Source: a virus (Duplodnaviria > Heunggongvirae > Uroviricota > Caudoviricetes). Taken from it: DNA of 64,000 nucleotides. Under the pieces are notes generated by a model. It searched no databases and had not been told where the DNA came from. It saw only the letters and a program-made list of their open reading frames with translations. Below are positions 22,114 to 49,806 of this stretch, piece by piece. The translations under genes and the position numbers were made by a program. The stretch lies in IMG/VR virus record IMGVR_UViG_3300009594_000001, one strand, 5' to 3'. Within the stretch, counting starts at the first letter, position 1, and each line of letters starts with the position of its first letter.

Positions 22114-22142
22114 TTGACTCGGTTGGCCTCTCTTGCTAGAAT
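22114..22142 (+). promoter_or_regulatory. sigma-70-like promoter TTGACT-17-TAGAAT
   Basis: Upstream of the first tRNA cluster. Confidence 0.5.
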
Positions 22143-22165
22143 GTTTCTCGTCAGTTGATTGCTAG

Positions 22166-22258
22166 GCAGGTAGCTTAGTAGGCCGCAAGGTAGCTTGGAG
22201 TAGAGCGTCAGCCTAATAAGTTGAAGGTTGCTGGTGCGAATCCAGTCCTGCCCACTTA
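22166..22258 (+). ncRNA. tRNA-like element (93 nt, type and anticodon unresolved)
   Basis: Acceptor-like ggcaggt/cctgcc pairing, T-arm ctgg-tgcgaat-ccag, long D region; no clean anticodon arm. Confidence 0.35.
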
Positions 22259-22441
22259 AACGAGAACTGCCGTGGCCGCAAGGCGGAAAGGCAACCCTGG
22301 GAGCGAGTCTCCCGCTAACATCCAACCGGACTCATAAGGGGTAGCGGGGAATCCGGTTCACGGCGGAAAAATTCCGAAAAATGTCCTTTTTTGGGATTGC
22401 TCGTCTATATATTGGACAGGCAGAAATGCCGACATGACGTG

Positions 22442-22512
22442 GGGTGGTGTAATTGGTCAACATACGAGGCTCATAACCTCGTGATTCCAGGTTCGAGTCC
22501 TGGCCCCGCAAC
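22442..22512 (+). tRNA. tRNA-Met(CAT)
   Basis: AC arm cgagg-ctCATaa-cctcg; T arm ccagg-ttcgagt-cctgg; acceptor ccccgca. Confidence 0.7.
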
Positions 22513-22789
22513 TCAAGGACGCTAACAGCATTTTCCTACTACGGCAAAGAGATGGCGTCCGGGGGACAAGCGGTTAAGTCGCTAGTCTCATAAACAACAC
22601 CGGGCCGTGAGGCCCACAATGGAGGCAAGAAGAATACAATGGCTGTCCTGATTCAGAGACATGGGAAACAATGGTGCCGCTGCCATAAGCAGTGGAATAA
22701 CCAGATTACGTACCTCATGTCCTGATCGAGCAGCCAAAAGCCGGTTCAGGGCGTGAGTCCTGGGCCGGTGTCATAGGGAACTTGTAGAA

Positions 22790-22830
22790 CCCCTCGATAC
22801 CACTCAGCGGTATCGAGGGGTTTCTTTTTT
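22790..22830 (+). terminator. rho-independent terminator
   Basis: cccctcgatacc-actcagc-ggtatcgagggg followed by tttcttttttc. Confidence 0.7.
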
Positions 22831-23177
22831 CTACGAGGTATCCCTATGAGGATAGTGTCGGAGTTCAGGGACTACTACGATTGCATCCAGGCAATGGGCC
22901 AAGATCGGTCGTTAGTCTATGTGAAAATATCGAAGGAAGTGGATTGTAGTTACCGAGGCGTGAATTCGCCGGTTTACCCCTTCCCGACGTTCGGAGGTTA
23001 CTATAGGTTTCCTTACGATGACTTTTCGATCCCTACATGGCGTTCCAAGAGATTTCGATGTATCTGGGAGGATTAGCAGTTCCTCAGAAACCTATGCCGA
23101 AAATCTCCGACGAAGTGATGGCAGAGATCAAGGGATTCGATAAATGGAGCTTCCGAAAAGAACCCAGCAGGAAATGA

Positions 23178-23248
23178 TGTGGCGTCAGATAATGGTAATC
23201 GGCCTGCCTGTTAAACAGGAGATGTTGGTTCGATCCCAGCCGCCACAG
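23178..23248 (+). tRNA. tRNA-Asn(GTT)
   Basis: Acceptor tgtggcg/cgccaca; AC loop ctGTTaa; T arm gttgg-ttcgatc-ccagc. Confidence 0.6.
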
Positions 23249-23254
23249 CTTTAT

Positions 23255-23339
23255 TCCTGGGTAGCCTAAAGGTAAGGCAGCAGTCTGTTAAACTGCCGTG
23301 GCGAAAGTCCGAATGTTGGTTCGAGTCCAACCCCAGGAG
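23255..23339 (+). tRNA. type-II-like tRNA with anticodon GTT (Tyr-like scaffold, long variable arm)
   Basis: Acceptor tcctggg/cccagga; D gcct/aggc; AC gcagt-ctGTTaa-actgc; 18-nt variable region; T gttgg-ttcgagt-ccaac. Confidence 0.5.
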
Positions 23340-23356
23340 CTTGATAGGTTAGTTCT

Positions 23357-23385
23357 TTGACAATTAGGATCGCCAAAACTATAGT
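23357..23385 (+). promoter_or_regulatory. sigma-70-like promoter TTGACA-17-TATAGT
   Basis: Consensus -35 with 17-nt spacer, inside the tRNA cluster. Confidence 0.5.
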
Positions 23386-23410
23386 CGCCGCAAGGCAGTG
23401 GTGACTATAT

Positions 23411-23492
23411 GGGGTCGTGGCAGAATGGTTATGCACCCGGCTTTTAACCGGAGCGAGAAATCGCAATGAGGGTTCGATTCCTTCTGGCCCCA
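23411..23492 (+). tRNA. tRNA-Lys(TTT) with a 15-nt variable arm
   Basis: Acceptor ggggtcg/tggcccc; AC ccgg-ctTTTaa-ccgg; variable hairpin gcga-gaaa-tcgc; T gaggg-ttcgatt-ccttc. Confidence 0.5.
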
Positions 23493-23496
23493 CTTT

Positions 23497-23568
23497 CGGC
23501 TCATGTTGTAGTGGTCTGCGAACCGCTCTGATAAGGCGGGAGTCCTGGGCCGATTCCAGGTGAGCCGA
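23497..23568 (+). tRNA. tRNA-Ile(GAT), atypical T-loop
   Basis: Acceptor cggctca/tgagccg; AC ccgct-ctGATaa-ggcgg; T cctgg-gccgatt-ccagg (no TTC); weak D arm. Confidence 0.45.
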
Positions 23569-23576
23569 CTCCGAAT

Positions 23577-23649
23577 GGCCTGGTCGTTCAATGGTTAGGA
23601 CGCCGCTCTGATAAGGCGGTAATGAAGGTTCGACTCCTTCCTGGGCTAC
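23577..23649 (+). tRNA. tRNA-Ile(GAT)
   Basis: Same AC arm ccgct-ctGATaa-ggcgg; T gaagg-ttcgact-ccttc; acceptor contains G-U pairs. Confidence 0.5.
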
Positions 23650-23856: not shown

Positions 23857-23928
23857 GGTGGTCGTGGTGTTGGTTTCGCACGCTTGGCTGTGAACCAAGA
23901 GGAATGGGTTCGATCCCCGTCGATCACC
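23857..23928 (+). tRNA. tRNA-His(GTG)
   Basis: G-1 present; acceptor gtggtcg/cgatcac; AC cttgg-ctGTGaa-ccaag; T atggg-ttcgatc-cccgt. Confidence 0.7.
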
Positions 23929-23932
23929 CTTG

Positions 23933-24221: not shown

Positions 24222-24294
24222 TGAGGGGTCGTCTAATTGGTAGGACGCTCGGCTTTGAACCGGGAAAATGAAGGTTCGACTCCTTCCCCCTCAG
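24222..24294 (+). tRNA. tRNA-Gln(TTG)
   Basis: Acceptor tgagggg/cccctca; AC ctcgg-ctTTGaa-ccggg; T gaagg-ttcgact-ccttc. Confidence 0.65.
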
Positions 24295-24317
24295 CTAGAC
24301 AGAATGGTGCAGACACC

Positions 24318-24388
24318 AGTTCCTTCGACCAAGTAGGTCAACATCCTGTTAAGATGTCCATTGTGGGTGTCAAATCCCACAGGAACAA
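24318..24388 (+). tRNA. tRNA-Asn(GTT)-like, atypical 8-nt T-loop
   Basis: AC acatc-ctGTTaa-gatgt; D gacc/ggtc; T gtggg-tgtcaaat-cccac; acceptor agttcct/aggaaca with one mismatch. Confidence 0.4.
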
Positions 24389-24418
24389 CCTGATGTCGAA
24401 TATCTCTTCTGTCTTTAC

Positions 24419-24491
24419 GGCCCCAAGGTGTTAGTGGCAGCATTCCACGCTCTTAACGTGCGGGGTCCGGGTTCAAGTCCCGGTGGGGCCA
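24419..24491 (+). tRNA. tRNA-Lys(CTT)
   Basis: Acceptor ggcccca/tggggcc; AC cacg-ctCTTaa-cgtg; T ccggg-ttcaagt-cccgg. Confidence 0.65.
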
Positions 24492-24582
24492 CTTTGCTCT
24501 AGAAAAACCTAGAGCCATCATCTATACTACTAGCACTACGACCAGTGGCTCGACCTGTTCCGCAAGAAGGAATGGATCGAGA

Positions 24583-25044
24583 ATGAATGCAACGAAACTG
24601 CTGTCCATAGGAAAGACAGCCGAAAGATTGGGAGTGCATGTTGATACTCTCAGGGAATGGGACAAAGACGGCAAACTGACCCCGGTGAAGACCCCCGGCA
24701 ACCATCGCCGCTACCGCATCGAAGACATCGAAGCGTTCTGCGGCAACATGGTTGAGAAGAAGGATGACGCAAAGGCAGTCAGAGTCGCCCAAGAAAAACC
24801 TCAAAATAAATTCAAGGATGTTTTGCATTTTGCCGATGATTACATTATAATACTTTGTCTGACTGTGGATACTCTACGATTTTGGCGGGACAAAGACGTA
24901 TTTGACCTGATTGGCACAATCGGAGGACACAACATTGATGAAGTTTTAGGTGTAATTAGTGAAAAGTCAAGTAAGGTGGACAGAGGACGAGGTAAATCTT
25001 CTCAAAGAACACGGAGCGACAAAACTCCTGCACGAACTGGTTGA
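24583..25044 (+). CDS. tnpA: IS607-family TnpA N-terminal MerR-like HTH segment (reading frame terminates before the catalytic domain)
   Basis: LLSIGKTAERLGVHVDTLREWDKDGKLTPVKTPGNHRRYRIEDIEAF matches the IS607 TnpA N-terminus from memory; it is followed by the intein block A-like CLTVDTLRF. Confidence 0.5.
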   Translation: MNATKLLSIGKTAERLGVHVDTLREWDKDGKLTPVKTPGNHRRYRIEDIEAFCGNMVEKKDDAKAVRVAQEKPQNKFKDVLHFADDYIIILCLTVDTLRFWRDKDVFDLIGTIGGHNIDEVLGVISEKSSKVDRGRGKSSQRTRSDKTPARTG

Positions 25045-25924
25045 GCTACTACCGAGACATACGGCAATGGGTATCTCGATCAAGAGAAAGCGGCTCGGCA
25101 TAGAACTGCCAGATGAATACCTGTCAAGGCAAGGAGCATACGGCAGGTCATTTGTAAATAATGACAACTTGTGTAAGACGGATCACAGCCTCACGCTAAA
25201 CGATCTTGATGATACGACCAAACAGGTTCTTCTTGGCAGCGTCTTAGGCGACGGCAGTATCAAGAAGAATGGAAGCGGTGGGAAGATGAGGGGCAAGTGG
25301 AGTCAAAGGAACTTCATCTTCTACGACATGCACAGAAGTCCACAATTTGACTACACGGACTGGAAGGCATCCAAACTCCAAACATTCTTAGCCAAGTCAA
25401 GCCGCAACGATGAGAAGAACAGGTCAGAGACTTGGACGGTATCGCATCCGATCTTCACCATGTTGCGTGATAAGTTTTATCCGGCGATGACGAAGTGTAA
25501 CAAGTGCATGATCCCCGCCGACATCGTTGAGCAGATGGATGAGTTGGCGTTGTTGGTGTGGTACTTTGATGACGGCTACATCGGTGTGCGTCCTGATGGA
25601 TTTGACACCAAAGGTCATCACAAACGACCGCAACCAAGAATTGCGGCAAAAGGTTGGAACTACGAAGACCTGTGCAGAGCCGCCGAGATACTGAACAAGA
25701 ACTTGGGGTTGCATCTGTACGTTCTTACATTCAAGCACAGGGACGGTGTTGGTAAAGAAGTCAAGATACCAGCAAAAGACAGGGATTACTTGTTTCAGCT
25801 TTGGCAGCAGTTGGCGAAACAACACGGCGTACCTGAGTGTATGATGTACAAACTGAACCTGCACGAATGGAAAGATGTACTTGTGTATAAGCAGCCACGA
25901 ACAGAAGCAGAAGGGCGACCTTGA
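24959..25924 (+). CDS. LAGLIDADG homing endonuclease (double-motif)
   Basis: Two dodecapeptide motifs, LLGSVLGDGSI and LLVWYFDDGYIG. Lies between the HTH and catalytic parts of tnpA, in a third frame. Confidence 0.7.
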   Translation: MKSQVRWTEDEVNLLKEHGATKLLHELVELLPRHTAMGISIKRKRLGIELPDEYLSRQGAYGRSFVNNDNLCKTDHSLTLNDLDDTTKQVLLGSVLGDGSIKKNGSGGKMRGKWSQRNFIFYDMHRSPQFDYTDWKASKLQTFLAKSSRNDEKNRSETWTVSHPIFTMLRDKFYPAMTKCNKCMIPADIVEQMDELALLVWYFDDGYIGVRPDGFDTKGHHKRPQPRIAAKGWNYEDLCRAAEILNKNLGLHLYVLTFKHRDGVGKEVKIPAKDRDYLFQLWQQLAKQHGVPECMMYKLNLHEWKDVLVYKQPRTEAEGRP

Positions 25925-26999
25925 GCGACAAAATGGGCGGGTTCTCGCCTACTGCGTCAAGAAACAGTACCAAGTAGTAAAATCCTACGAGGAAGTCGGC
26001 TCTGGCATGTGCGACACCCGACCAAAACTTCATCAAATCTTCAAGTTGGTTGAAGAGAAGCAGGTGGATAAGGTCATCGTAGAACACAAGGACCGGCTGA
26101 CCCGGTTCAACTTCAACTTTCTGGCAGCGTTCTTCGCCAGTCATGGTGTTGAGGTTGAATGGACAGAGGAAGTGCTTGGGAACAAGCGGTACGAGGACGA
26201 GTTAGTGGAAGACATGCTCACGCTCATGTCCTCGTTCTCAAACAAAATCTACGGCAAACGATCCGCAGAGAACCGCAAGAAGAAAAAGTTAGAGAAGTTG
26301 GCGGCAAAGGAGCAAGGTGAAGGTACAGAGGGGCTTCAAGACGGAGATCAGACCAAGCGACAAGCAAAAGACGCTGCTGCTCAAGAATGCAGGAGCGGCA
26401 CGCTGGGCGTACAACTACGGTCTGAGCCAGAAGAAGATCGCTCTGGAAGCCAAGACGAAGATACCCAACGCCATCGAACTGCACCGTCGCTTGAACGAGT
26501 TGAAGAAGACGGAAATACCGTGGGCTTACGAGTGCAGCAAGTGCAGTTTTCAAGAAGCACTCAGAAACCTCGACAGGGCTTTCAGCAACTTCTGGACAGC
26601 ACGGAAAACCAAGAGACGCATGGGCTTCCCGAAGTTCAAGAGCAAGAAGAACGGCATCGGCGGCTTCCGGCTCACAGGGACGATCATCGTGTCCAGCGAC
26701 CGCATCCAGTTGCCCCGTCTCGGCACGATCCGGCTCAAGGAGAAGAACTACCTGCCGACCGACGCCAAGATACTCAACGCCACGGTAACGGAGAGGGCTG
26801 GCAGGTGGTTCGTGAGCGTACTGGTGGAGATGGAACAGCCGGAATACACCGGCATCAAGGACAAGAAGGACGTGGTGGGCGTGGACTTGGGCATCAAGAC
26901 GCTGGCGACCGTGAGCGACGGCACGGTGTACGAGAACCCGAAACCACTCAAGACCCGATTACGCAAACTACGGCGGCTACAACGAGCAGTCGCCCGTAA
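25875..26999 (+). CDS. tnpA: IS607-family serine recombinase catalytic domain (TnpA C-terminal part; 3' end uncertain)
   Basis: YLCISSHEQKQKGDLERQ (cf. YARVSSxxQ...DLxRQ) and IVEHKDRLTRFNFNFL...GVEVEW. The frame stays open to 26999, overlapping tnpB out of frame; the true stop is probably near 26330. Confidence 0.55.
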   Translation: MYLCISSHEQKQKGDLERQNGRVLAYCVKKQYQVVKSYEEVGSGMCDTRPKLHQIFKLVEEKQVDKVIVEHKDRLTRFNFNFLAAFFASHGVEVEWTEEVLGNKRYEDELVEDMLTLMSSFSNKIYGKRSAENRKKKKLEKLAAKEQGEGTEGLQDGDQTKRQAKDAAAQECRSGTLGVQLRSEPEEDRSGSQDEDTQRHRTAPSLERVEEDGNTVGLRVQQVQFSRSTQKPRQGFQQLLDSTENQETHGLPEVQEQEERHRRLPAHRDDHRVQRPHPVAPSRHDPAQGEELPADRRQDTQRHGNGEGWQVVRERTGGDGTAGIHRHQGQEGRGGRGLGHQDAGDRERRHGVREPETTQDPITQTTAATTSSRP

Positions 27000-27456
27000 G
27001 GTCAAGGGCAGTAGAAACCGCAGGAAGGCGGCAGACCGTGTGGCTCGTTTGTACCTGAAAGTGAGCAACATCCGTAAGGACACCTTGCACAAGATGACGA
27101 CATGCTTGACGAAAACCAAGTCGGCGGTCGGTATCGAGGACTTGAACGTGTCGGGGATGCTCAGGAACAGGTGCTTGGCACGGTCTATCGCTGATCTCGG
27201 TCTTGGTGAATGGCGGCGGCAGATGACCTATAAGGGCGTCTGGTACAAGTGCCACATCGCCGTGGCGGACAGGTTCTTCGCCTCCAGCAAGACGTGTAGC
27301 GTCTGCGGGGAGATCAACGAGAACCTGACGCTGGCTGACCGAGAGTGGGTCTGTGAAGGTTGTGGGACGCACCATGACCGGGACTTCAACGCAAGCAGTA
27401 ATTTGGAATACGTTGCCGCCAGTTCGACGGAAACGATAAACGCCTGTGTAGTGTGA
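26317..27456 (+). CDS. tnpB: TnpB (IS605 OrfB family RuvC-like nuclease with zinc finger)
   Basis: 379 aa with the OrfB N-terminus (PSDKQKTLLLKNAGAARWAYNYGL), RuvC motifs (VVGVDLGIKTLAT; GIEDLNVSGM) and C-terminal zinc finger CSVCGE...CEGCG. Confidence 0.85.
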   Translation: MKVQRGFKTEIRPSDKQKTLLLKNAGAARWAYNYGLSQKKIALEAKTKIPNAIELHRRLNELKKTEIPWAYECSKCSFQEALRNLDRAFSNFWTARKTKRRMGFPKFKSKKNGIGGFRLTGTIIVSSDRIQLPRLGTIRLKEKNYLPTDAKILNATVTERAGRWFVSVLVEMEQPEYTGIKDKKDVVGVDLGIKTLATVSDGTVYENPKPLKTRLRKLRRLQRAVARKVKGSRNRRKAADRVARLYLKVSNIRKDTLHKMTTCLTKTKSAVGIEDLNVSGMLRNRCLARSIADLGLGEWRRQMTYKGVWYKCHIAVADRFFASSKTCSVCGEINENLTLADREWVCEGCGTHHDRDFNASSNLEYVAASSTETINACVV

Positions 27457-27601
27457 TGGCTCTGGCTTGAGGGCGTACCTCAAGTGAAACTGTTTCGTAT
27501 GCAGCAGGAATGGAACAGGAAATCGGGGTCATTTTGTGCCTTCCAGATTTCCATAGGTTTTCAGGAACGGTTCGACTCCCTACGGTCCCACTAGATGATA
27601 G

Positions 27602-27908: not shown

Positions 27909-27977
27909 TGCCCTCTGGTGTAATGGCAGCACATCTGACTTTGGATCAGATAGTTCACGTTCGAGTTGTGGGAGGGC
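27909..27977 (+). tRNA. tRNA-Gln(TTG)
   Basis: Acceptor gccctct/ggagggc; D-arm gtgtaatggcagcaca; AC tctga-ctTTGga-tcaga; T cacg-ttcgagt-tgtg. Confidence 0.55.
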
Positions 27978-28115
27978 AGCTTGCAAAGAGCGGATAGTAA
28001 CGATGGCATGGGTGAACTGTCACCAGATATTACTCCCAAAAGGCCCGCTCCGAGTCGGGGAAGTGGATTACCAGCCCTGGTGCCTTAGCCCCGATGGGTG
28101 TGACCGAGGGTAGAT

Positions 28116-43642: not shown

Positions 43643-43737
43643 CCCACACGTAAGCCAGCTTTACAAGGAGACCATCATGCGTAGTCAAAGGAATGGTAGC
43701 GTCTTCTAGAGCAATTACGCTCTAGGAGAAATGCTAC

Positions 43738-44198: not shown

Positions 44199-44269
44199 GC
44201 CGGTATGTTGTAGTGGTAGCGAGTCTGCCTTGTAAGCAGAAAGCGAGGGTTCGATTCCTTCTACCGGCT
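44199..44269 (+). tRNA. tRNA-Thr(TGT)
   Basis: Acceptor gccggta/taccggc; AC tctgc-ctTGTaa-gcaga; T gaggg-ttcgatt-ccttc. Confidence 0.65.
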
Positions 44270-44281: not shown

Positions 44282-44358
44282 GCGGCTATAGTGTTTAACG
44301 GTCTCAGTACGACTGGCTTCCAACCAGTTAGTGGCAGGTTCAAATCTCCCTAGCTGCT
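44282..44358 (+). tRNA. tRNA-Gly(TCC)-like (imperfect T-stem)
   Basis: Acceptor gcggcta/tagctgc; AC actgg-ctTCCaa-ccagt; T-loop ttcaaat with two stem mismatches. Confidence 0.45.
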
Positions 44359-44982: not shown

Positions 44983-45054
44983 GCCCCGTTCGACTTCGGG
45001 TGAGGTCGCTTGGCTTTCAACCAAGCTAGAAGAGTTCGACTCTCTTACGGGGTA
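44983..45054 (+). tRNA. tRNA-Glu(TTC)
   Basis: Acceptor gccccgt/acggggt; D gac-ttcgggtgag-gtc; AC cttgg-ctTTCaa-ccaag; T aagag-ttcgact-ctctt. Confidence 0.65.
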
Positions 45055-45060
45055 CTATAT

Positions 45061-45139: not shown

Positions 45140-45214
45140 TGGGGTGTGGTTCAGCTTGGAGTGGACGCCAGTTTCGGGAACTGGAGAACGTGGGTTCAAG
45201 TTCCACCACCCCGA
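45140..45214 (+). tRNA. tRNA-Pro(CGG)
   Basis: Acceptor tggggtg/caccccg; AC ccagt-ttCGGga-actgg; T gtggg-ttcaagt-tccac. Confidence 0.6.
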
Positions 45215-45319
45215 CTCGAAGGCAACAGGTCCGACTCGGATGGCCTGGTGCTACTACCTGTCAGCCGCCATTAGTGTAAGGGCACGTCCGCCAGCAAGGG
45301 CGGGAGGACCGAGTTTCTA

Positions 45320-45400
45320 TATCTGGATGTGTCGGGAGTCCGGTTATCCGTCCTGCTTCGGATGCAGGGGCACGTTGGTTCAAATCCAACCACCCAGACT
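45320..45400 (+). ncRNA. tRNA-like element (type-II-like, possible anticodon CTG with C33)
   Basis: T-arm gttgg-ttcaaat-ccaac; acceptor ctggatg/cacccag with one mismatch; AC atccg-tcCTGct-cggat; 10-nt variable region. Confidence 0.3.
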
Positions 45401-45403
45401 CAT

Positions 45404-45477
45404 CGGGGCGTAGCTCAGCTTGGTAGAGCGTCTGGTTTGGGACCAGAAGGCCGCAGGTCCGAATCCTGTCGCCCCGA
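45404..45477 (+). tRNA. tRNA-Pro(TGG)
   Basis: Acceptor cggggcg/cgccccg; D gctc-agcttggtag-agc; AC tctgg-ttTGGga-ccaga; T gcagg-tccgaat-cctgt. Confidence 0.75.
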
Positions 45478-45791
45478 CTGTGGAGTGGTGAAGATAAGGG
45501 ATACTTCAAACGTCACACTCATAATGTGAAACTGTAGGTGCAACTCCTACCCCTACTATCTTGAAGAGGTTGAAGAACCTCAGAAAGAAATGGCGGACAG
45601 AGCAGACTAGAGAACGAAGTTTCGTCTGGGCTACGTGCCCGGTGCCTTGAGTCTCGAAAAATCAGTTGGGATAGATATCGATTACGGTATGTGTTCCAGC
45701 GAGCTTGATCGGTTCATTCGTGAACTCGAAAGAGCAACCACGCCAGGGTAGTTTAACAGAAAGTCCCTTGCCGACTATTTCCTCTACAAAC

Positions 45792-45938: not shown

Positions 45939-46010
45939 GACCCATTGGTTTACCGGATGCATCTCTGTCTGACGTACAGAAAGCAGTAGGTTCGATTCTT
46001 ACATGGGTCA
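45939..46010 (+). tRNA. tRNA-Val(GAC)
   Basis: Acceptor gacccat/atgggtc; AC tctgt-ctGACgt-acaga; T gtagg-ttcgatt-cttac. Confidence 0.6.
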
Positions 46011-46025
46011 CTCGGAGGGTATATC

Positions 46026-46625: not shown

Positions 46626-46698
46626 GGGCCATTGGTGTATCGGCTAACACGTCTCGCTTACACCGAGAAGACGGTAGGTTCAACTCCTACATGGCCCA
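46626..46698 (+). tRNA. tRNA-Val(TAC)
   Basis: Acceptor gggccat/atggccc; AC tctcg-ctTACac-cgaga; T ggtagg-ttcaact-cctac. Confidence 0.65.
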
Positions 46699-46808
46699 CT
46701 GCCAGCAAGGTGCAGGGTAGAGTTACTTCACAGGTTCAATTCTTGTTTTCTCCGCAAGGGGAAAGCTAAAGGTAGCTTCACTCTTCTCGAATATGTCTGC
46801 TGGCAAAT

Positions 46809-46883
46809 GGGCCGTTGGTGAAGCCTGGAGTTCACGTCACGTTGACATCGTGAAGGTCGCTGGTTCAAATCCAGCACGGCCCA
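46809..46883 (+). tRNA. tRNA-Val(GAC)
   Basis: Acceptor gggccgt/acggccc; D gtga/tcac; AC tcacg-ttGACat-cgtga; T gctgg-ttcaaat-ccagc. Confidence 0.65.
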
Positions 46884-47091
46884 CTTATGGAATTGCTAGA
46901 TAATCTCAAATCTCTGACGAACGTGGCAAAGTTCTTCCACAAGCTGCGACACAAAGAGCTTGTGTTAGATAAGAAGACACCCATCGAGGACGTTACCAAG
47001 AAGCTTAAAAGAAAGGTGCCTGCTGTACTAGAAGGCTGTAAAGTCCATCTGGCTACATATCACCGATCTCAAGAAGCAGGGTAAAGTTTCG

Positions 47092-47832: not shown

Positions 47833-47905
47833 GGGGGCTTAGCTCAGTTGGGAGAGCGACAGGCTGGCAGTCTGTAGGTCATGGGTTCGAGTCCCATAGC
47901 CTCCA
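47833..47905 (+). tRNA. tRNA-Ala(GGC)
   Basis: Acceptor gggggct/agcctcc (G3:U70); D gctc-agttgggag-agc; AC acagg-ctGGCag-tctgt; T atggg-ttcgagt-cccat. Confidence 0.7.
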
Positions 47906-47910
47906 CTTTT

Positions 47911-47982
47911 GGCTCCATCGTCTAGCGGCTAGGACATAACCCTCTCAAGGTTAAGACCGGAGTTCGAGTCTCCGTGGAGTCA
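47911..47982 (+). tRNA. tRNA-Glu(CTC)
   Basis: Acceptor ggctcca/tggagtc; AC taacc-ctCTCaa-ggtta; T cggag-ttcgagt-ctccg. Confidence 0.65.
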
Positions 47983-48164
47983 CTTATGAACGCTAGAATG
48001 GTTTAGCCAGACCCGCTTAGGGATTTGGATTGGAACCTGTAGTGCGTTTCTTTTCTACGCATGGCACATTATGATGTGTCGTCGTAAGAAAGAGAAATAC
48101 ATGTACTATGAGGCCGAGAAAGCATACAATCCGAAATTAGAGTTTCGGTGGTGGATTAAGTAGC

Positions 48165-48476
48165 ATGTGGGAAAACTGCCACGACGCATTGGAGTATGAA
48201 GAGGCCGTGAAGCGGGCTGAAGAGTACAAACGAGTCAGCAAGCCGCTTCAAGCTGTGTGCAATGTCTGTGGCACCCCTTCTCAGTTCTTCATTCAAGGGA
48301 ACATCACTGTCGAAGAAGAGGAAGGCGAAGTAAAATTGGTTGCGATCTGCAAAAAGTGCCTTCTAGAGATCGGCTTAGAGCAATGCTACAAATTCTTGAT
48401 GGACCATGTTGGAACTTCACAGCGAACGAAATACCTCCAAGGTTTCAAAGCCCAGCGACTATTGATGGGGGCTTAG
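48165..48476 (+). CDS. hypothetical protein (103 aa) with CxxC...CxxC
   Basis: ORF; zinc-ribbon-like cysteines CNVCG...CKKC. Confidence 0.4.
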   Translation: MWENCHDALEYEEAVKRAEEYKRVSKPLQAVCNVCGTPSQFFIQGNITVEEEEGEVKLVAICKKCLLEIGLEQCYKFLMDHVGTSQRTKYLQGFKAQRLLMGA

Positions 48477-48539
48477 CTCAGATGGGAGAGCGATAGCTTT
48501 GCAAGCTATAGGTCATGGGTTCGAGTCCCATAGCCTCCA
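48467..48539 (+). tRNA. tRNA-Ala(TGC)
   Basis: Same acceptor and D-arm as Ala(GGC); AC atagc-ttTGCaa-gctat; T atggg-ttcgagt-cccat. Confidence 0.75.
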
Positions 48540-48599
48540 CTCGTCTCATACATAGGAAAAGGTCATGAAATGAAGCGTGTAGATAACGATTGATGTTTG

Positions 48600-48670
48600 G
48601 CCCCGTCCAGCGGACTTCTGGCACCGAGTTTCCTAAACTTGGTTAATTGGTTCGACTCCAATACGGGGTA
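48600..48670 (+). tRNA. tRNA-Arg(CCT) (irregular D region)
   Basis: Acceptor gccccgt/acggggt; AC cgagt-ttCCTaa-acttg; T attgg-ttcgact-ccaat. Confidence 0.5.
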
Positions 48671-48673
48671 CTT

Positions 48674-48775
48674 GCGGGATGGTGCAGGATACGGTTCCTT
48701 CGCCAAATGGTATGGCACTAGCTGTCAAAGCTGGAGTTGTGGGTTCAATTCCCACAGGTTCAAATCCCGTATCTG
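48674..48775 (+). ncRNA. ~100-nt tRNA-like region with two T-loop-like motifs
   Basis: 5' gcgggat pairs with 3' atcccgt 100 nt downstream; contains gtggg-ttcaatt-cccac and ggttcaaatcc; no clean cloverleaf. Confidence 0.25.
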
Positions 48776-48803
48776 TTTATTTCTCCCGCTACTTACATAA
48801 GGA

Positions 48804-49451
48804 ATGATTTATCATGCAATCGGGACGCATCTTGGTGATTGTTGGTCCAGCCTGAACTACGTGCTATTCCAAGACGATCCCTGCATCTCGATGTATTTCC
48901 TATCACACTCCAGGGGGTGGAAGAAACGGAATGCTGGAAAGCACTTCAGGAAGATGATCCCGTTGTTCAAAGACGGTGATAGAATCAAAGTTACCGAAGA
49001 GCTACCAACTGTACGGCTAACTTGGAGGGGCATTTACAATGTCCCAGGTTATCACGAGACCGTTTATCCCTGGGCGGGCGAGGGCAGCAAGAAGGTTGCC
49101 TATCAGTTCAATGGTCGCAACAACGGCTTTGCTAAGAACTGCAAGCCCTGGGAAGAAGCGTGGATTTTGGAAGTGCTATGTGAGCTTGGCTATGAGCCGG
49201 TTCAGATGGGCTTGCCAAAATCGCTGAAGCAGAGCATCAAAGACTTGTCTCGGTGCTGTGCCTTCGTTGGAGTAGAGAGTGGTTTTTCGGTAGTATCACA
49301 GTCGATAGTCGGTTTGCCGATAACGATCATTCGCAACCAGATCGAGGAGGAATCTATTCGGCACTCACAGCGAGGCGACGGGCGGATAGTTAAAGACGCT
49401 GCTGAGTATATAGCTCTGTTAAAGAGCGGTCAGATTGCCGGTATAGGATAG
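48804..49451 (+). CDS. hypothetical protein (215 aa)
   Basis: ORF; stop lies inside the following tRNA-Thr. Confidence 0.45.
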   Translation: MIYHAIGTHLGDCWSSLNYVLFQDDPCISMYFLSHSRGWKKRNAGKHFRKMIPLFKDGDRIKVTEELPTVRLTWRGIYNVPGYHETVYPWAGEGSKKVAYQFNGRNNGFAKNCKPWEEAWILEVLCELGYEPVQMGLPKSLKQSIKDLSRCCAFVGVESGFSVVSQSIVGLPITIIRNQIEEESIRHSQRGDGRIVKDAAEYIALLKSGQIAGIG

Positions 49452-49507
49452 TGGTAGTCCGTCTCACTCGTAATGAGAAAGCCTGTGTTCGATTCATAGT
49501 ACCGGCT
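49437..49507 (+). tRNA. tRNA-Thr(CGT)
   Basis: Acceptor gccggta/taccggc; AC tctca-ctCGTaa-tgaga; T ctgtg-ttcgatt-catag. Confidence 0.6.
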
Positions 49508-49518
49508 CTTGCTCAAGT

Positions 49519-49634
49519 GCAGATCGTTGCCGTAATGAGAAGTAGGTATCGAATCCCCAAGTCGCAAGTCAGCCGAGCAACTGGCGTAAGCGATGCAAGG
49601 TAGGTCTAGCGTGAGTTCGAGTCTCACCGATCTG
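49519..49634 (+). ncRNA. 116-nt tRNA-like element (perfect acceptor gcagatc/gatctgc, two T-arm-like motifs, partial Thr-like anticodon arm)
   Basis: ccgtaatgag duplicates the preceding tRNA-Thr anticodon arm; T gtgag-ttcgagt-ctcac at the 3' end. Confidence 0.3.
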
Positions 49635-49641
49635 CACAACT

Positions 49642-49713
49642 GCCGATGTAGCATAAAGGTAATGCACGATCTTGGTAAGATCGGGAGTGTGGGTTCAAGT
49701 CCCACCATCGGCT
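49642..49713 (+). tRNA. tRNA-Thr(GGT)
   Basis: Acceptor gccgatg/catcggc; D gcat/atgc; AC cgatc-ttGGTaa-gatcg; T gtggg-ttcaagt-cccac. Confidence 0.7.
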
Positions 49714-49735
49714 CTTTGACGTTTCAACCAAACAT

Positions 49736-49806
49736 GCTACCGTCTTCTAGTGGTAAGAAACCAGCGTGGTAAGCTGGGAACCTGAGTTTGATTCTCAGCG
49801 GTAGCT
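49736..49806 (+). tRNA. tRNA-Thr(GGT)
   Basis: Acceptor gctaccg/cggtagc; AC ccagc-gtGGTaa-gctgg; T ctgag-tttgatt-ctcag. Confidence 0.55.

What the first reader, a model, noticed from the sequence alone, without database searches (positions are those of the whole stretch)
22114..49806. Exceptionally large and redundant tRNA complement (43 tRNAs and a dozen tRNA-like elements in 64 kb) arranged in promoter-driven arrays
By-eye cloverleaf folding gives tRNAs for Met x2, Asn x2, Lys x3, Ile x2, His x2, Gln x3, Arg x2, Cys x2, Gly x4, Asp x2, Thr x4, Glu x4, Pro x2, Val x4 and Ala x2. Many are near-identical paralogs sharing acceptor and D-arms (e.g. Ala GGC/TGC, Glu TTC/CTC, Thr). Consensus sigma-70 promoters sit at 22114 and 23357 and a terminator at 22790. 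No canonical Leu, Ser, Tyr, Phe or Trp genes were recognised. The set is biased toward particular codon families, and several members have atypical T-loops or G-U-rich acceptors.
Basis: seen in the sequence. Interest (0 to 1): 0.55.

Follow-up and report, generated by a model that had tools for sequence, protein, structure and literature searches.

The report
Huge-phage tRNA gene array
The window holds a real, dense array of about 43 transfer-RNA genes plus about 14 decayed or altered copies, on what is most likely a ~464 kb "huge phage" genome; such arrays are already known, but two of its tRNAs (Asn and Lys) carry an extra hairpin arm that proved to be a widespread feature of virus-borne tRNA arrays for which my searches found no description.

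Summary
ARAGORN finds 43 tRNAs, all on the + strand. Rfam finds 43 at the gathering score, and the union is 47. The T-loop box GGTTCRANTCC occurs 35 times, all on the + strand, against 0.37 expected. About 14 further tRNA-like remnants lie in the array.

The window is part of a 463,644 bp metagenomic contig. It is syntenic with LR756511.1, an "uncultured phage" of 595 kb, whose own tRNA array sits at the same position. This is therefore a new member of a known kind: huge phages are reported with up to 67 tRNAs.

The missing Leu, Ser and Tyr tRNAs reflect structural class, not codon bias. In LR756511 all 12 clustered long-arm (class II) tRNAs form a separate array about 136 kb from the main one. 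The window set decodes every codon of 15 amino acids.

The "SeC" call is a decayed pseudo-tRNA, and the window uses the standard genetic code. "Near-identical paralogs" is overstated, because only the Ala pair reaches 89% identity. Consensus promoters exist but are not enriched over chance.

New details:
- 36 of 43 genes end N73-C74-T75, with no encoded CCA.
- tRNA-Asn(GUU) at 23255 and tRNA-Lys(UUU) at 23411 carry a GAAA-capped extra arm.
- That arm recurs in at least 105 viral loci with stem covariation, and in 1 of 185,579 bacterial and archaeal species genomes for the Asn form.

The parts
22114..22142 (+). sigma-70-like promoter (TTGACT-17-TAGAAT, with TG extension) upstream of the first tRNA-like element and the initiator-like tRNA-Met
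   Evidence: 10 of 12 matches. Function not shown; such sites are not enriched over shuffles.
22184..22254 (+). tRNA-like element or weak tRNA (anticodon position reads AAT); keeps the A-C-T-T trailer
   Evidence: Rfam 41.7 bits; ARAGORN only at lowered threshold; fold z-score -0.43
22438..22512 (+). tRNA-Met(CAU), initiator-like (C1xA72 mismatch)
   Evidence: (59.9 bits)
22787..22823 (+). strong intrinsic-terminator-like hairpin (15 bp stem, then a T-run)
23178..23249 (+). tRNA-Asn(GUU), normal length (72 nt)
23255..23340 (+). tRNA-Asn(GUU) of 86 nt with an extra hairpin in the variable region (GGC-GAAA-GUC); Asn-type acceptor (U1-A72, C2-G71, C3-G70, G73)
   Evidence: (60.6 bits); the MFE fold is a five-arm cloverleaf, z-score -3.0; homologues in 7 viral contigs and 1 bacterial-assembly tRNA array
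23357..23385 (+). best sigma-70-like promoter of the region (TTGACA-17-TATAGT); the -10 box ends 25 nt before the extra-arm tRNA-Lys
   Evidence: 11 of 12 matches. Function not shown.
23411..23493 (+). tRNA-Lys(UUU) of 83 nt with an extra hairpin in the variable region (GCGA-GAAA-UCGC); A73
   Evidence: (50.8 bits); member of a family found in at least 105 IMG/VR loci with stem covariation
23497..23569 (+). tRNA-Ile(GAU), atypical T-loop GCCGATT
   Evidence: (44.5 bits)
23577..23649 (+). tRNA-Ile(GAU)
23858..23929 (+). tRNA-His(GUG) with encoded G-1 and C73
23933..24004 (+). tRNA-like remnant (perfect T-arm GCAGG-TTCGAGT-CCTGT, T-C-T-A trailer)
24222..24295 (+). tRNA-Gln(UUG)
24318..24390 (+). 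degenerate tRNA-like element (8-nt T-loop), paralog of the 'UCA' element at 48693
   Evidence: (68% identity)
24419..24492 (+). tRNA-Lys(CUU)
24583..27456 (+). mobile-element block that splits the array: IS607-like serine recombinase (HTH part 24583-25044, catalytic domain 25875-26999), a LAGLIDADG endonuclease ORF (24959-25924) and TnpB (26317-27456)
   Evidence: Pfam Resolvase 4.4e-19; phrog_506 transposase 5e-110 and a LAGLIDADG PHROG; sequence read
27530..27592 (+). tRNA 3'-half remnant just after the IS element (GGTTCGACTCC box, A-C-T trailer)
27909..27980 (+). tRNA-Gln(UUG)
28106..28195 (+). tRNA-like element (perfect T-arm, A-C-T-A trailer, degenerate core)
28278..28348 (+). tRNA-Arg(UCU), weak
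   Evidence: ARAGORN; Rfam 28.3 bits, just under the gathering score
28537..28608 (+). tRNA-Gln(CUG)
28610..28725 (+). 116-nt tRNA-like element: perfect 7-8 bp acceptor, perfect T-arm, expanded core, A-C-T-T trailer
   Evidence: ARAGORN with the intron option; T-arm scan
28733..28805 (+). tRNA-His(GUG) with G-1 and C73
28994..29066 (+). tRNA-Cys(GCA)
30834..30907 (+). tRNA-Lys(CUU)
35104..35175 (+). tRNA-Gly(UCC), atypical T-loop ATCATGT
36453..36523 (+). tRNA-Gly(CCC)
42382..42452 (+). tRNA-Met(CAU); elongator Met or Ile2 type, not resolved
42494..42850 (+). free-standing HNH homing endonuclease between tRNA genes; two homologues lie inside the LR756511 tRNA arrays
   Evidence: phrog_3106 2.6e-23; tblastn
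42835..42908 (+). tRNA-Pro(UGG), weak (3-bp T-stem)
   Evidence: Rfam 32.9 bits
43019..43092 (+). tRNA-Gly(GCC)
   Evidence: 70.8 bits
43096..43167 (+). tRNA-Gly(ACC), unusual A34 anticodon
   Evidence: (55.2 bits)
43358..43445 (+). tRNA-like element (perfect T-arm, acceptor, T-C-T-T trailer, aberrant core)
43455..43528 (+). tRNA-Asp(GUC)
43586..43656 (+). tRNA-like element whose anticodon arm is a 6-bp stem capped by a GAAA tetraloop (no usable anticodon loop); imperfect acceptor
   Evidence: Rfam 32.8 bits
44120..44194 (+). tRNA-Asp(GUC)
44199..44269 (+). tRNA-Thr(UGU)
44282..44358 (+). weak tRNA or tRNA-like element (UCC at the anticodon position)
   Evidence: Rfam 33.2 bits
44429..44501 (+). 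tRNA-Glu(UUC)
44983..45055 (+). tRNA-Glu(UUC)
   Evidence: Rfam 45.2 bits
45061..45134 (+). tRNA-Glu(CUC), tandem paralog of 44983 (74% identity)
45140..45215 (+). tRNA-Pro(CGG)
45323..45399 (+). tRNA-Pro(CGG), weak
   Evidence: ARAGORN only
45404..45478 (+). tRNA-Pro(UGG)
   Evidence: 67.2 bits
45484..45558 (+). tRNA-like element (CAU at the anticodon position, truncated D-arm)
   Evidence: Rfam 33.7 bits
45792..45864 (+). tRNA-Val(CAC)
45939..46011 (+). tRNA-Val(GAC), weak D-arm
   Evidence: 37.8 bits
46626..46699 (+). tRNA-Val(UAC)
46665..46753 (+). tRNA-like remnant overlapping the 3' end of tRNA-Val (second T-arm at 46730)
   Evidence: weak
46809..46884 (+). tRNA-Val(GAC)
47833..47906 (+). 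tRNA-Ala(GGC) with G3:U70
47911..47983 (+). tRNA-Glu(CUC), paralog of 44429 (77% identity)
48467..48540 (+). tRNA-Ala(UGC), 89% identical to 47833 (duplication plus anticodon change)
   Evidence: (70.9 bits)
48600..48671 (+). decayed tRNA: acceptor identical to Glu 44983, perfect T-arm, A-C-T-T trailer, but ruined D and anticodon arms
48693..48763 (+). pseudo-tRNA with UCA anticodon (ARAGORN labels it 'SeC'); three mismatches in the acceptor stem, no SeC architecture, A-A-T trailer
   Evidence: (41.3 bits); TGA is the commonest stop codon
49437..49508 (+). tRNA-Thr(CGU)
49560..49640 (+). tRNA 3'-fragment (T-arm GTGAG-TTCGAGT-CTCAC)
   Evidence: approximate bounds
49642..49714 (+). tRNA-Thr(GGU)
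49736..49807 (+). tRNA-Thr(GGU), T-loop TTTGATT
52824..52904 (+). 81-nt tRNA-like element with AAA at the anticodon position, a weak anticodon stem, a 13-nt variable loop and a G-U-rich acceptor; lies just upstream of the MoxR gene
   Evidence: (46.7 bits); fold z-score -1.0 and not a cloverleaf
63709..63798 (+). tRNA-Ile(UAU) of 90 nt with an extra arm (GUCC-CAGAUAA-GGAC)
   Evidence: 56.4 bits; five-arm MFE fold, z-score -3.3

Best explanation
The region 22.1-49.8 kb, with outliers at 52.8 and 63.7 kb, is the main tRNA gene array of a huge bacteriophage. The window belongs to a 463.6 kb contig that is distantly related to the 595 kb phage LR756511.

The array holds bacterial-type tRNAs of the short-variable-loop class. 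They cover every codon of Ala, Cys, Asp, Glu, Gly, His, Ile, Lys, Met, Asn, Pro, Gln, Thr and Val, plus AGA/AGG of Arg.

Inferred mechanism:
1. The genes are co-oriented with small ORFs and are read as polycistronic transcripts. Some of these start at sigma-70-like promoters, and the phage also encodes sigma factors.
2. The 5' ends are cut out by RNase P.
3. The 3' ends are cut by an RNase Z/BN-type activity. No gene encodes CCA, and 84% end N73-C74-U75.
4. A CCA-adding enzyme completes the 3' end.
5. Host or phage synthetases charge the tRNAs.
6. The tRNAs keep phage translation running when host tRNAs are depleted, mismatched to phage codon use, or cleaved by tRNA-targeting defences.

The array evolves by birth and death. 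There is local duplication with anticodon change (Ala GGC/UGC; Glu UUC/CUC; Gln; Thr; Val). Copies decay into about 14 tRNA-like remnants. Homing endonucleases and an IS607/TnpB element have invaded it.

The lack of Leu, Ser and Tyr reflects segregation by structural class. These tRNAs are expected in a separate array elsewhere on the contig, as in LR756511.

Shown here: the genes, their folds and identity elements, the synteny, the trailer, the paralogy and the mobile elements. Inferred: transcription, processing, charging and biological role.
For: tRNA calls:
- ARAGORN finds 43 and Rfam finds 43, with a union of 47, all on the + strand.
- The T-box occurs 35 times against 0.37 expected, and T-arm hairpins are 47 on the + strand against 1 on the - strand.

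Contig and phage context:
- The window lies on ena:ERZ27245623:k141_14709, 463,644 bp.
- The flanks carry dUTPase, Endonuclease VII, PhoH, amidoligase, sigma factors, IF1-like, a class I aaRS and an RF-like gene.
- Many ORFs have no family match.

Relationship to LR756511.1:
- 25 proteins match at 22-71% identity.
- Window -9 kb to 7 kb is collinear with LR 307.9 to 293.4 kb, and LR's own array begins immediately afterwards at 291 kb.
- The MoxR operon is collinear with LR 392.6 to 386.6 kb.
- LR756511 has 62-63 tRNAs plus a tmRNA.
- Its 12 clustered class II tRNAs lie alone at 427.7-437.5 kb.
- Huge phages with up to 67 tRNAs are published (PMC7162821).

Other points:
- Trailer statistics.
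- Identity elements.
- Paralogy.
- Mobile elements.
- The cultured Streptomyces phage Faust has the same companions in its tRNA region: HNH endonuclease, Ro-like protein, Band-7-like protein and tmRNA.
- Standard genetic code.
Against: - No capsid, portal or terminase gene was seen in the 83 kb of the contig that I could read. Phage identity therefore rests on synteny with a deposited phage genome and on gene content.
- The rest of the contig could not be read, so the predicted class II array is unverified.
- In another huge phage (LR745206) and in phage Faust, class II tRNAs are interspersed with the others. Segregation is therefore not general.
- Promoter-like sites are not enriched, and there are no expression data.
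- Several members score poorly and may be non-functional: Arg 28278, Pro 42835 and 45323, Val 45939.
- The host is unknown. The only hint is that the named homologues of the DUF4139 protein are Planctomycetota at about 38% identity. Codon compensation could therefore not be tested.
Confidence: 0.8

Rival explanations
1. The array is a 'tRNA array unit' on a bacterial chromosome, megaplasmid or integrative element, like those described in Mycobacterium and Firmicutes, and not on a phage.
For: - tRNA array units exist on chromosomes and plasmids (PMC5966550, PMC6515697; listed).
- The MoxR-DUF58-VWA-BatA operon, the glycosyltransferases and the DUF4139 protein are bacterial-type genes.
- No virion gene was seen in the 83 kb read.
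- The only hit for the extra-arm Asn tRNA among species genomes is a 22-tRNA array on an actinobacterial assembly contig.
Against: - Three blocks are collinear with LR756511.1, a curated huge-phage genome, and LR carries the MoxR operon itself.
- Endonuclease VII, PhoH, dUTPase, amidoligase, homing endonucleases and an intein are present, with a high fraction of ORFs that have no family match.
- The DUF4139 homologues sit in ordinary Planctomycetota chromosomal contexts that share nothing else with this contig.
Confidence: 0.1
2. Most of the array is non-functional: decaying tRNA pseudogenes or selfish duplicated DNA with no role in translation.
For: - There are about 14 obvious remnants.
- Several calls are low-scoring.
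- Some elements have odd anticodons: ACC, AAA, UCA.
- The tRNAs diverge fast between relatives, reaching at most 82% identity to any LR756511 tRNA.
Against: - 34 of the 43 score at least 50 bits on the tRNA model.
- Amino-acid-specific identity elements are intact.
- The isoacceptor set is complete for 15 amino acids.
- The 3' trailer is conserved in 84% of the genes.
- The array is positionally conserved in a distant relative.
Confidence: 0.07
3. The main selective value of the array is defence evasion, not codon supply. Redundant and structurally altered tRNAs, including the extra-arm Asn and Lys, replace host tRNAs that are cut by anticodon nucleases.
For: - Phage tRNAs rescue infection from PARIS, retron-Eco7 and PrrC (PMC11464382, PMC11555353, PMC10264068).
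- PARIS AriB targets Lys(UUU), Thr(UGU) and Asn(GUU), cuts at 40|41 and contacts the D-loop (PMC12409363).
- Extra-arm tRNAs here and in relatives are mostly Lys, Asn and Thr.
- Normal and extra-arm Asn genes sit side by side here and in several of the other viral arrays.
- The best consensus promoter lies directly upstream of the extra-arm Lys.
- Window codon usage is even, so compensation pressure looks weak.
Against: - Nothing here is experimental.
- The host and its defences are unknown.
- Extra arms also occur on Gln, Ile, Met, Trp, Cys and Arg tRNAs.
- The AriB analogy comes from E. coli.
- This is a claim about function that is compatible with the best explanation, not an exclusive alternative to it.
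Confidence: 0.3

Closest known systems
tRNA complements of huge phages (Al-Shayeb et al. 2020, PMC7162821), specifically LR756511.1 (595,163 bp)
   Same: - Dozens of co-oriented tRNAs with redundant isoacceptors.
- The array sits at the syntenic position, downstream of the sigma factor / thioredoxin / epimerase block.
- HNH endonuclease homologues lie inside the arrays.
- The N73-C74-U75 trailer is shared.
- An extra-arm class I tRNA is present (Thr(UGU), 83 nt).
- Translation genes (RF, IF1-like) lie nearby.
   Different: - The tRNA sequences are at most 82% identical.
- Our copy has a 15 kb insertion (ligase, Ro60, DUF4139, glycosyltransferase) between the conserved block and the array.
- The MoxR operon lies directly after our array but about 95 kb away in LR.
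- LR has Trp, Phe, five Arg tRNAs, an amber-suppressor tRNA(CUA) and a tmRNA that are not seen in our window.
- Our MoxR gene carries an intein that LR appears to lack.
tRNA gene regions of cultured large phages (T5-type tRNA-rich region; Streptomyces phage Faust NC_070783.1; Ruegeria phage vB_RpoS-V10 MH015255.1)
   Same: - tRNAs are interspersed with small ORFs and free-standing HNH endonucleases.
- Faust also carries a Ro-like protein, a Band-7-like protein and a tmRNA in its tRNA region, and all 24 of its tRNAs keep C74 without CCA.
- vB_RpoS-V10 has an 88-nt tRNA-Lys next to a tRNA-Asn.
   Different: - Those arrays hold 24-30 tRNAs with class II tRNAs mixed in. Ours has none in 64 kb.
- Ours is larger and carries more remnants.
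Bacterial and plasmid 'tRNA array units' (Morgado & Vicente, PMC5966550; PMC6409571 for viruses)
   Same: High tRNA density, association with mobile elements, and isoacceptor redundancy.
   Different: The genomic context here is phage-like and syntenic with a phage genome.
Class II (long variable arm) tRNAs Leu/Ser/Tyr, and nematode 'nev-tRNAs' (V-arm tRNAs with Gly/Ile anticodons; recalled from memory, not checked here)
   Same: The extra stem-loop lies between the anticodon and T arms. Many viral extra-arm Lys and Asn tRNAs also have the 3-bp D-stem and long D-loop typical of class II.
   Different: - The anticodons are Lys(UUU) and Asn(GUU).
- The acceptor and discriminator match Lys (A73) or Asn (U1-A72, G73).
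- The arm is short (3-4 bp) and GAAA-capped.
- Our own two copies have class I-type D-arms.

Membership tests
Canonical tRNA (Rfam RF00005) | Scores at or above the family gathering score (29 bits) on the covariance model | tested here: met
   43 window matches between 32.8 and 70.9 bits. Arg 28278 gives 28.3 bits, just below the threshold, and Pro 45323 is not reported.
Canonical tRNA (Rfam RF00005) | Cloverleaf with a 7-bp acceptor, D-arm, 7-nt anticodon loop with U33, and a T-arm with the TTCRANY loop | tested here: met
   ARAGORN structures for all 43. Exceptions: 48693 has three acceptor mismatches, 52824 has a weak anticodon stem, and a few have atypical T-loops.
Canonical tRNA (Rfam RF00005) | Isoacceptor identity elements (His G-1/C73; Ala G3:U70; initiator C1xA72; discriminators) | tested here: met
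   Read directly from the sequences. The rules themselves come from established knowledge of E. coli identity sets.
Canonical tRNA (Rfam RF00005) | Expressed, processed, CCA-tailed and aminoacylated | not testable with these tools
   There are no expression data. CCA is not encoded in any of the 43 genes.
Huge-phage tRNA array | Located on a phage genome longer than 200 kb | tested here: inconclusive
   The contig is 463,644 bp. It is syntenic with the curated phage LR756511.1 and has phage-type flanking genes. No virion gene lies within the 83 kb that could be read.
Huge-phage tRNA array | Tens of tRNA genes clustered, with redundancy beyond a minimal set | tested here: met
   41 tRNAs in 27.6 kb, with 2-4 genes per amino acid.
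Huge-phage tRNA array | tRNA sequences distinct from those of the host | not testable with these tools
   The host genome is unknown.
Selenocysteine tRNA (for 48693-48763, which ARAGORN labels 'SeC') | 8/5 or 9/4 acceptor/T-stem geometry, long variable arm, 6-bp D-stem | tested here: not met
   It is 71 nt, with a 4-nt variable loop and a 4-bp D-stem, and its acceptor has three mismatches. The label comes from the UCA anticodon alone.
Stop-codon-recoding suppressor system (UGA reassignment) | In-frame TGA in genes, so that ORFs lengthen when TGA is read as sense | tested here: not met
   TGA is the commonest stop codon (20 of 41 ORFs). The longest ORFs do not change when TGA is read as sense. 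This was tested in the window only.
Class II (long-variable-arm) tRNA, for 23255, 23411 and 63709 | Extra base-paired arm between positions 44 and 48 | tested here: met
   ARAGORN and the MFE folds show a 3-4 bp stem plus loop. Covariation of the three pairs next to GAAA appears in 98 unique viral Lys(UUU) sequences: 91/91/79% paired against 45% in shuffles.
Class II (long-variable-arm) tRNA, for 23255, 23411 and 63709 | Leu, Ser or Tyr anticodon and identity | tested here: not met
   The anticodons are GUU, UUU and UAU. The acceptor and discriminator are of the Asn and Lys type.
YrlA-type bacterial Y RNA (for the candidate at 13470-13640 near the Ro60 gene) | Encoded next to a Ro60/TROVE gene and containing a tRNA-like module (D and T arms) | tested here: met
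   The TROVE gene is at 10357-12282. The element lies 1.2 kb downstream and has acceptor, D-arm, T-arm (CAGG-UUCAAUU-CCUG) and a G-C-U trailer. The region folds with z-score -4.6.
YrlA-type bacterial Y RNA (for the candidate at 13470-13640 near the Ro60 gene) | Match to the Rfam YrlA model (RF02553), with the Ro-binding stem formed by the 5' and 3' ends | tested here: not met
   There is no YrlA match at E <= 1 in 1-22500. The long helix is a local hairpin 5' of the tRNA-like module.

The most novel reading that the evidence does not exclude
The extra-arm tRNA-Asn(GUU) at 23255-23340 and tRNA-Lys(UUU) at 23411-23493 may belong to an undescribed, virus-associated structural class. These are tRNAs with Lys or Asn identity that carry a short GAAA-capped variable arm, often on a class II-like body. 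They are kept next to a normal isoacceptor in mobile tRNA arrays.

The arm would be selected because it lets the tRNA escape host tRNA-targeting nucleases while still being charged and used. PrrC, RloC and PARIS AriB-type enzymes have Lys, Asn and Thr tRNAs as their known targets.

A bolder variant is that some of these tRNAs are charged by LeuRS, SerRS or TyrRS and mistranslate.

What is shown:
- The family exists in at least 105 viral loci.
- The arm's stem covaries.
- The Asn form is all but absent from 185,579 species genomes.
- The family occurs in cultured phages, where it is annotated as plain 'tRNA-Lys'.

What is not shown: any function.
Probability: 0.25. Interest if true: 0.8.

Novelty: new member of a known kind. 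Interest (0 to 1): 0.5.

Why it matters
The array itself adds one more example to a documented phenomenon, large phages carrying near-complete tRNA sets, so it is not surprising on its own. Three details could matter if they hold up.

1. Segregation by class. In the LR756511 lineage, tRNA genes are separated by structural class, with the clustered class II genes in their own array. This argues that such arrays grow by local duplication and anticodon change within a class, not by piecemeal capture from hosts.

2. The 3' trailer. The N73-C74-U75 trailer is nearly invariant here and in LR756511. LR745206 has C-A-A instead, and phage Faust keeps C74 only. This points to a conserved 3'-processing signal for phage tRNAs that lack encoded CCA.

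3. The extra-arm family. Lys(UUU) and Asn(GUU) tRNAs with the extra arm are a large, covarying, virus-enriched family hidden under ordinary 'tRNA-Lys' and 'tRNA-Asn' labels.
   - Lys, Asn and Thr tRNAs are the known targets of several anti-phage nucleases, so the family gives a directly testable hypothesis for structural immune evasion.
   - It is also a possible source of orthogonal tRNAs.
   - Cultured carriers exist, such as Ruegeria phage vB_RpoS-V10 on R. pomeroyi DSS-3, so the experiments are feasible.

Tried and rejected
- Near-identity search of the window against 50,697 phage records: no match.
- IMG/VR relatives found through the TROVE and DUF4139 proteins: only 27-34% identical, with no shared synteny and no arrays.
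- The large contigs (260-630 kb) that carry DUF4139 homologues looked like possible related huge phages. They turned out to be ordinary Planctomycetota chromosomal contexts.
- Walking along the 463 kb contig to find the Leu/Ser/Tyr genes: not possible beyond +/-10 kb, because only window-encoded proteins can be looked up.
- UGA recoding as the role of the UCA tRNA: rejected.
- Selenocysteine tRNA: rejected.
- Codon-bias explanation for the anticodon set: rejected. Usage is even, and the missing amino acids make up about 30% of codons.
- A recurrent phage promoter motif upstream of tRNA clusters: none found by 9-mer counting or by eye.
- ARAGORN at very low thresholds: rejected as evidence, because it gives as many calls on the - strand and outside the array as inside it. 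A T-arm and trailer test was used instead.
- The idea that extra arms occur only on ANN-decoding tRNAs: contradicted by extra-arm Gln, Trp, Cys, Glu and others.
- The alignment of extra-arm Asn tRNAs is not a fair covariation test, because the search pattern fixed GAAAGTCC. The Lys pattern fixed only the loop and was used instead.
- Rfam YrlA for the Ro-adjacent element: no match.
- Literature searches for a description of extra-arm Lys or Asn phage tRNAs: nothing found. This is absence in one library, not proof of novelty.

Full report

Yes. ARAGORN tRNA genes in the 64 kb window, all on the + strand, and 41 of them lie between 22438 and 49807. An independent covariance-model search against Rfam finds 43 matches to RF00005 at or above the gathering score. 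Four of these ARAGORN misses (22184, 43586, 44282, 45484). Conversely, three weak ARAGORN calls fall below the Rfam filters or cut-off. The union is 47.

The T-loop box GGTTCRANTCC occurs 35 times, every time on the + strand, against 0.37 expected. A scan for T-arm hairpins gives 47 on the + strand and 1 on the - strand. Ten of the + strand hairpins lie inside the array region but outside any ARAGORN gene.

Lowering ARAGORN's threshold further is not informative. It then calls as many 'tRNAs' on the wrong strand and outside the array as inside it.

The differences are Arg 1 (not 2), Cys 1 (not 2) and Pro 4 (not 2). The tools also add a UCA element, an AAA element and an Ile(UAU).

**2. Are they real tRNAs?**

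Most are. Thirty-four score at least 50 bits. Amino-acid-specific identity elements are in place:
- Both His genes have an encoded G-1 opposite C73.
- Both Ala genes have G3:U70.
- Met 22438 has the C1xA72 mismatch of bacterial initiators.
- Asn, Gln and Asp have G73.
- Gly and Cys have U73.

Weak members are Arg 28278, Pro 42835 and 45323, and Val 45939.

The 'tRNA-SeC(tca)' at 48693 is not a selenocysteine tRNA. It is 71 nt, has a 4-nt variable loop and has three mismatches in the acceptor stem. Its closest paralog is another degenerate element, at 24318. The window also uses the standard code. TGA is the commonest stop codon (20 of 41), and reading TGA as sense does not lengthen the long ORFs.

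**3. What genome is this?**

Exact-protein look-ups place the window on ena:ERZ27245623:k141_14709, a contig of 463,644 bp, at about 264,748-328,747.
- The 9 kb to the left encode dUTPase/dCTP deaminase, an Endonuclease VII homologue, PhoH, a Gp80-family protein and an amidoligase.
- The 10 kb to the right encode a 928-aa class I aminoacyl-tRNA synthetase and a release-factor-like protein.
- The window itself has two sigma factors, an IF1-like gene, an NAD ligase, a Ro60/TROVE protein, an SPFH protein, a MoxR ATPase carrying an intein, and many ORFs with no family match.

A translated search with a concatenation of such unmatched ORFs hit one record, LR756511.1, an 'uncultured phage' genome of 595,163 bp.

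I assembled that record from 50 kb pieces and compared it with 83 kb of our contig. Twenty-five proteins match in three collinear blocks. Our -9 kb to +7 kb region maps to LR 307.9 to 293.4 kb, and LR's own tRNA array starts right after that block, at 291 kb. The two arrays are therefore positional homologues.

No virion gene lies in the part of our contig I could read. Phage identity is thus well supported but not proven, and I put it at about 0.85.

The named homologues of the DUF4139 protein are all from Planctomycetota, apart from one MAG labelled Crenarchaeota, and they sit in ordinary chromosomal contexts. This is a weak hint at the host.

**4. Why no Leu, Ser or Tyr?**

The explanation is not codon bias. 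In 34 window CDSs, codon usage is even. Leu, Ser, Tyr, Phe, Trp and the Arg CGN codons make up about 30% of codons. By contrast, the tRNAs present read every codon of 15 amino acids.

What is missing is a structural class. LR756511 has 62-63 tRNAs plus a tmRNA. Its Leu x6, Tyr x2 and Ser x4 genes with long variable arms sit together, with no other tRNA among them, at 427.7-437.5 kb. That is about 136 kb from the main array, which has none of them. One more Leu lies at 6.3 kb.

With about 21% of tRNAs being class II in that genome, finding zero among 43 by chance has a probability near 4e-5 (my calculation). The simplest reading is that our contig keeps its class II genes elsewhere too. I could not check this, because look-ups are limited to proteins encoded in the window.

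Segregation is not universal. In huge phage LR745206 and in Streptomyces phage Faust, the classes are mixed.

**5. How the array evolves**

- Adjacent or nearby isoacceptors are each other's best matches. Ala GGC/UGC is 89% identical over 80 nt including flanks. Glu UUC/CUC pairs are 74% and 77%, Thr UGU/CGU is 74%, Gln UUG/CUG is 72%, and the Val genes are 67-71%. The mean over all pairs is 56%. 'Near-identical' is therefore true only for Ala.
- Between the two phages, no tRNA pair exceeds 82% identity.
- Decay is visible. The element at 48600 keeps the acceptor of Glu 44983 and a perfect T-arm but has lost its D and anticodon arms. The element at 43586 has its anticodon loop replaced by a GAAA tetraloop on a 6-bp stem. 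The element at 28610 has a perfect acceptor and T-arm around a 116-nt core.
- Mobile DNA sits inside the array:
  - An HNH homing endonuclease lies at 42494-42850, with two homologues inside LR's arrays.
  - A block at 24583-27456 combines an IS607-type serine recombinase, a LAGLIDADG endonuclease and TnpB. It splits the first tRNA cluster.
- Free-standing endonucleases in phage tRNA regions are a known theme. Faust has one as well.

**6. Expression and processing (inferred)**

Genes and ORFs are co-oriented and tightly packed, and stop codons abut tRNA 5' ends.

However, promoter-like sites are no more frequent than in shuffled sequence, and I found no recurrent motif.

No gene encodes CCA. 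Instead, 36 of 43 genes continue N73-C74-T75. In LR756511 the figure is 55 of 62. In LR745206, 37 of 41 continue C-A-A. In Faust, all 24 keep C74 with a mixed next base.

This looks like a conserved 3'-processing context for cleavage by an RNase Z/BN-type enzyme, followed by CCA addition. From memory, unchecked here: B. subtilis RNase Z is activated by a uracil just downstream of the discriminator, and E. coli RNase BN was defined on tRNA-C-U substrates modelled on T4 precursors. Most remnants keep the N-C-T trailer.

**7. The extra-arm tRNAs**

Three window tRNAs are too long: Asn(GUU) at 23255-23340 (86 nt), Lys(UUU) at 23411-23493 (83 nt) and Ile(UAU) at 63709-63798 (90 nt). Each folds by free energy alone into a five-arm cloverleaf, with a 3-4 bp stem in the variable region. 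The stem is capped by GAAA in Asn and Lys.

Their acceptors and discriminators are those of Asn (U1-A72, C2-G71, C3-G70, G73) and Lys (A73). The extra-arm Asn sits 5 nt after a normal 72-nt Asn.

The same feature recurs elsewhere:
- LR756511 has a Thr(UGU) of 83 nt with GUC-GAAA-GAC.
- LR745206 has Lys(UUU) of 87 and 84 nt, Lys(CUU) of 87 nt, Asn(GUU) of 87 nt and Gln(UUG) of 82 nt.

A pattern for the Asn form (CTGTTAA N9-12 GAAAGTCC N5-8 GGTTCGA) hits 7 IMG/VR contigs of 17.7-424 kb. In six of the seven the hit lies inside a dense tRNA array; the seventh locus (L038) holds only two tRNAs. In four the extra-arm gene lies in the same locus as a normal Asn, directly adjacent in two. In one genome for each of 185,579 bacterial and archaeal species, it hits once. 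That hit is itself a 22-tRNA array in 4.5 kb on an actinobacterial assembly contig.

A looser pattern for Lys(UUU) fixes only the anticodon loop, a GAAA and the T-box. Of these, 105 lie inside ARAGORN tRNA-Lys(UUU) genes of 81-93 nt. The median is 10 tRNAs per locus, and 39 loci also hold a normal Lys(UUU).

In 98 unique sequences, the three positions on each side of GAAA pair in 91%, 91% and 79% of cases, against 45% after shuffling. Many pair types are used (CG, AT, GC, TA), and pairing disappears at the fourth layer. That is covariation for a real 3-bp arm.

The family is diverse, with 68 clusters at 80% identity. Many members have the short D-stem and long D-loop of class II tRNAs.

A cultured example exists. 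Ruegeria phage vB_RpoS-V10 carries an 88-nt gene annotated simply as 'tRNA-Lys', next to a tRNA-Asn.

Four literature queries found no description of such tRNAs. That does not prove there is none.

**8. What might the arm do?**

This is hypothesis only. Phage tRNAs are now known to rescue infection from tRNA-cleaving defences (PMC10264068, PMC11464382, PMC11555353). PARIS AriB targets exactly Lys(UUU), Thr(UGU) and Asn(GUU). It cuts between positions 40 and 41, and in an AlphaFold 3 model supported by a U16C substitution that impairs cleavage it also contacts the D-loop (PMC12409363).

An arm emerging between those two contact regions could plausibly block such an enzyme. Keeping a normal and an armed copy side by side would fit bet-hedging.

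Against this idea: arms also occur on Gln, Ile, Met, Trp, Cys and Arg tRNAs, the host here is unknown, and nothing was tested.

**9. Verdict**

The finding is real. It is the class I tRNA array of a probable ~464 kb huge phage, a new member of a known kind. It is off on 'codon bias', 'near-identical' and 'promoter-driven', and it missed the genomic context.

The most valuable results are secondary: class segregation in the LR756511 lineage, the N-C-U trailer, and the widespread extra-arm Lys/Asn tRNA family.

Noticed in passing
window 10357-12282 (TROVE/Ro60 gene) and 13409-13763 (candidate RNA at about 13470-13640): A Ro60/TROVE homologue lies 10 kb upstream of the array. About 1.2 kb downstream of it there is a promoter-like TTGACA-17-TATCAT, then a long imperfect hairpin, then a tRNA-like module. 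The module has acceptor GGCUGG/CCAGCC, a D-arm, a T-arm CAGG-UUCAAUU-CCUG and a G-C-U trailer, and its anticodon arm is replaced by a GCAA-capped hairpin. The region folds with z-score -4.6. It is possibly a Y-RNA-like partner of Ro60, but there is no Rfam YrlA match and the architecture differs. Phage Faust also has a Ro-like gene inside its tRNA region.
   Followed up: partly
all tRNA genes of the window; LR756511.1; LR745206.1 (L028); NC_070783.1 (L029): The 3' trailer is strongly conserved. It is N73-C74-T75 in 36 of 43 window genes and in 55 of 62 in LR756511. In LR745206 it is C-A-A in 37 of 41, and in Faust C74 is kept in 24 of 24. CCA is essentially never encoded in these phages, although some IMG/VR arrays do encode it.
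   Followed up: partly
LR756511.1 427,700-437,520 (L024 16899-26719), against its main array at 233-291 kb: In the closest complete relative, the 12 clustered class II tRNAs (Leu x6, Tyr x2, Ser x4) form their own array with no class I tRNA among them, and the 49-gene main array has none of them. That phage also has an amber-suppressor-like tRNA(CUA) at 179,588 and a tmRNA.
   Followed up: yes
They also occur in cultured Ruegeria/Roseobacter phages, where they are annotated as plain tRNA-Lys.
   Followed up: partly
window 52982-55090, with 55087-60334 downstream: The MoxR-type AAA ATPase is interrupted by an intein (Hint plus LAGLIDADG domains at residues 68-355). In LR756511 the two flanking parts align contiguously, so that homologue appears to lack the intein. 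The DUF58/VWA/BatA operon downstream is collinear in both phages.
   Followed up: partly
window 6118-6572: A group II intron domain V (Rfam 56.3 bits, 6477-6572) lies just after a 141-aa ORF that matches only the HNH end of intron maturases. It looks like a truncated group II intron, next to a short epimerase-like ORF.
   Followed up: no
window 24583-27456: The IS607-like element has its recombinase in pieces: a MerR-type HTH ORF at 24583-25044 and the catalytic domain at 25875-26999. A LAGLIDADG endonuclease ORF lies between them and TnpB follows. A tRNA 3' remnant lies just beyond TnpB, at about 27530-27592.
   Followed up: partly
window 9024, 12322, 13586, 22183, 22276, 23388, 46752, 61940 (+ strand); 33804 (- strand): The octamer CCGCAAGG, a GCAA tetraloop closed by CC/GG, occurs 9 times against 2.0 +/- 1.2 expected, 8 of them on the + strand. 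Several copies lie beside tRNA-like elements and around the Ro60 gene.
   Followed up: no
L010 10842-10938 (81-177 nt beyond the right end of the window): A 97-nt tRNA-like gene has a class I body. Its anticodon stem encloses about 26 nt. The sequence reads C-U-U-A-A followed by a small hairpin, so removing about 20 nt would leave a canonical Leu(UAA) anticodon loop. It could be an insertion-bearing tRNA or a decoy. Bacteria have no known way to splice such a short insert.
   Followed up: no
window 43096-43167: tRNA-Gly with an ACC anticodon (A34) scores 55 bits and lies next to Gly(GCC). A34 is unusual in bacteria outside Arg(ACG). All four Gly anticodons (UCC, CCC, GCC, ACC) are present.
   Followed up: no
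window 38856-38883: A 12-bp GC-rich hairpin with a GAAA tetraloop, followed by a T-rich tail (terminator-like), lies just before the SPFH/Band-7 gene at 38963-40876. Faust also has a Band-7-like gene in its tRNA region.
   Followed up: no
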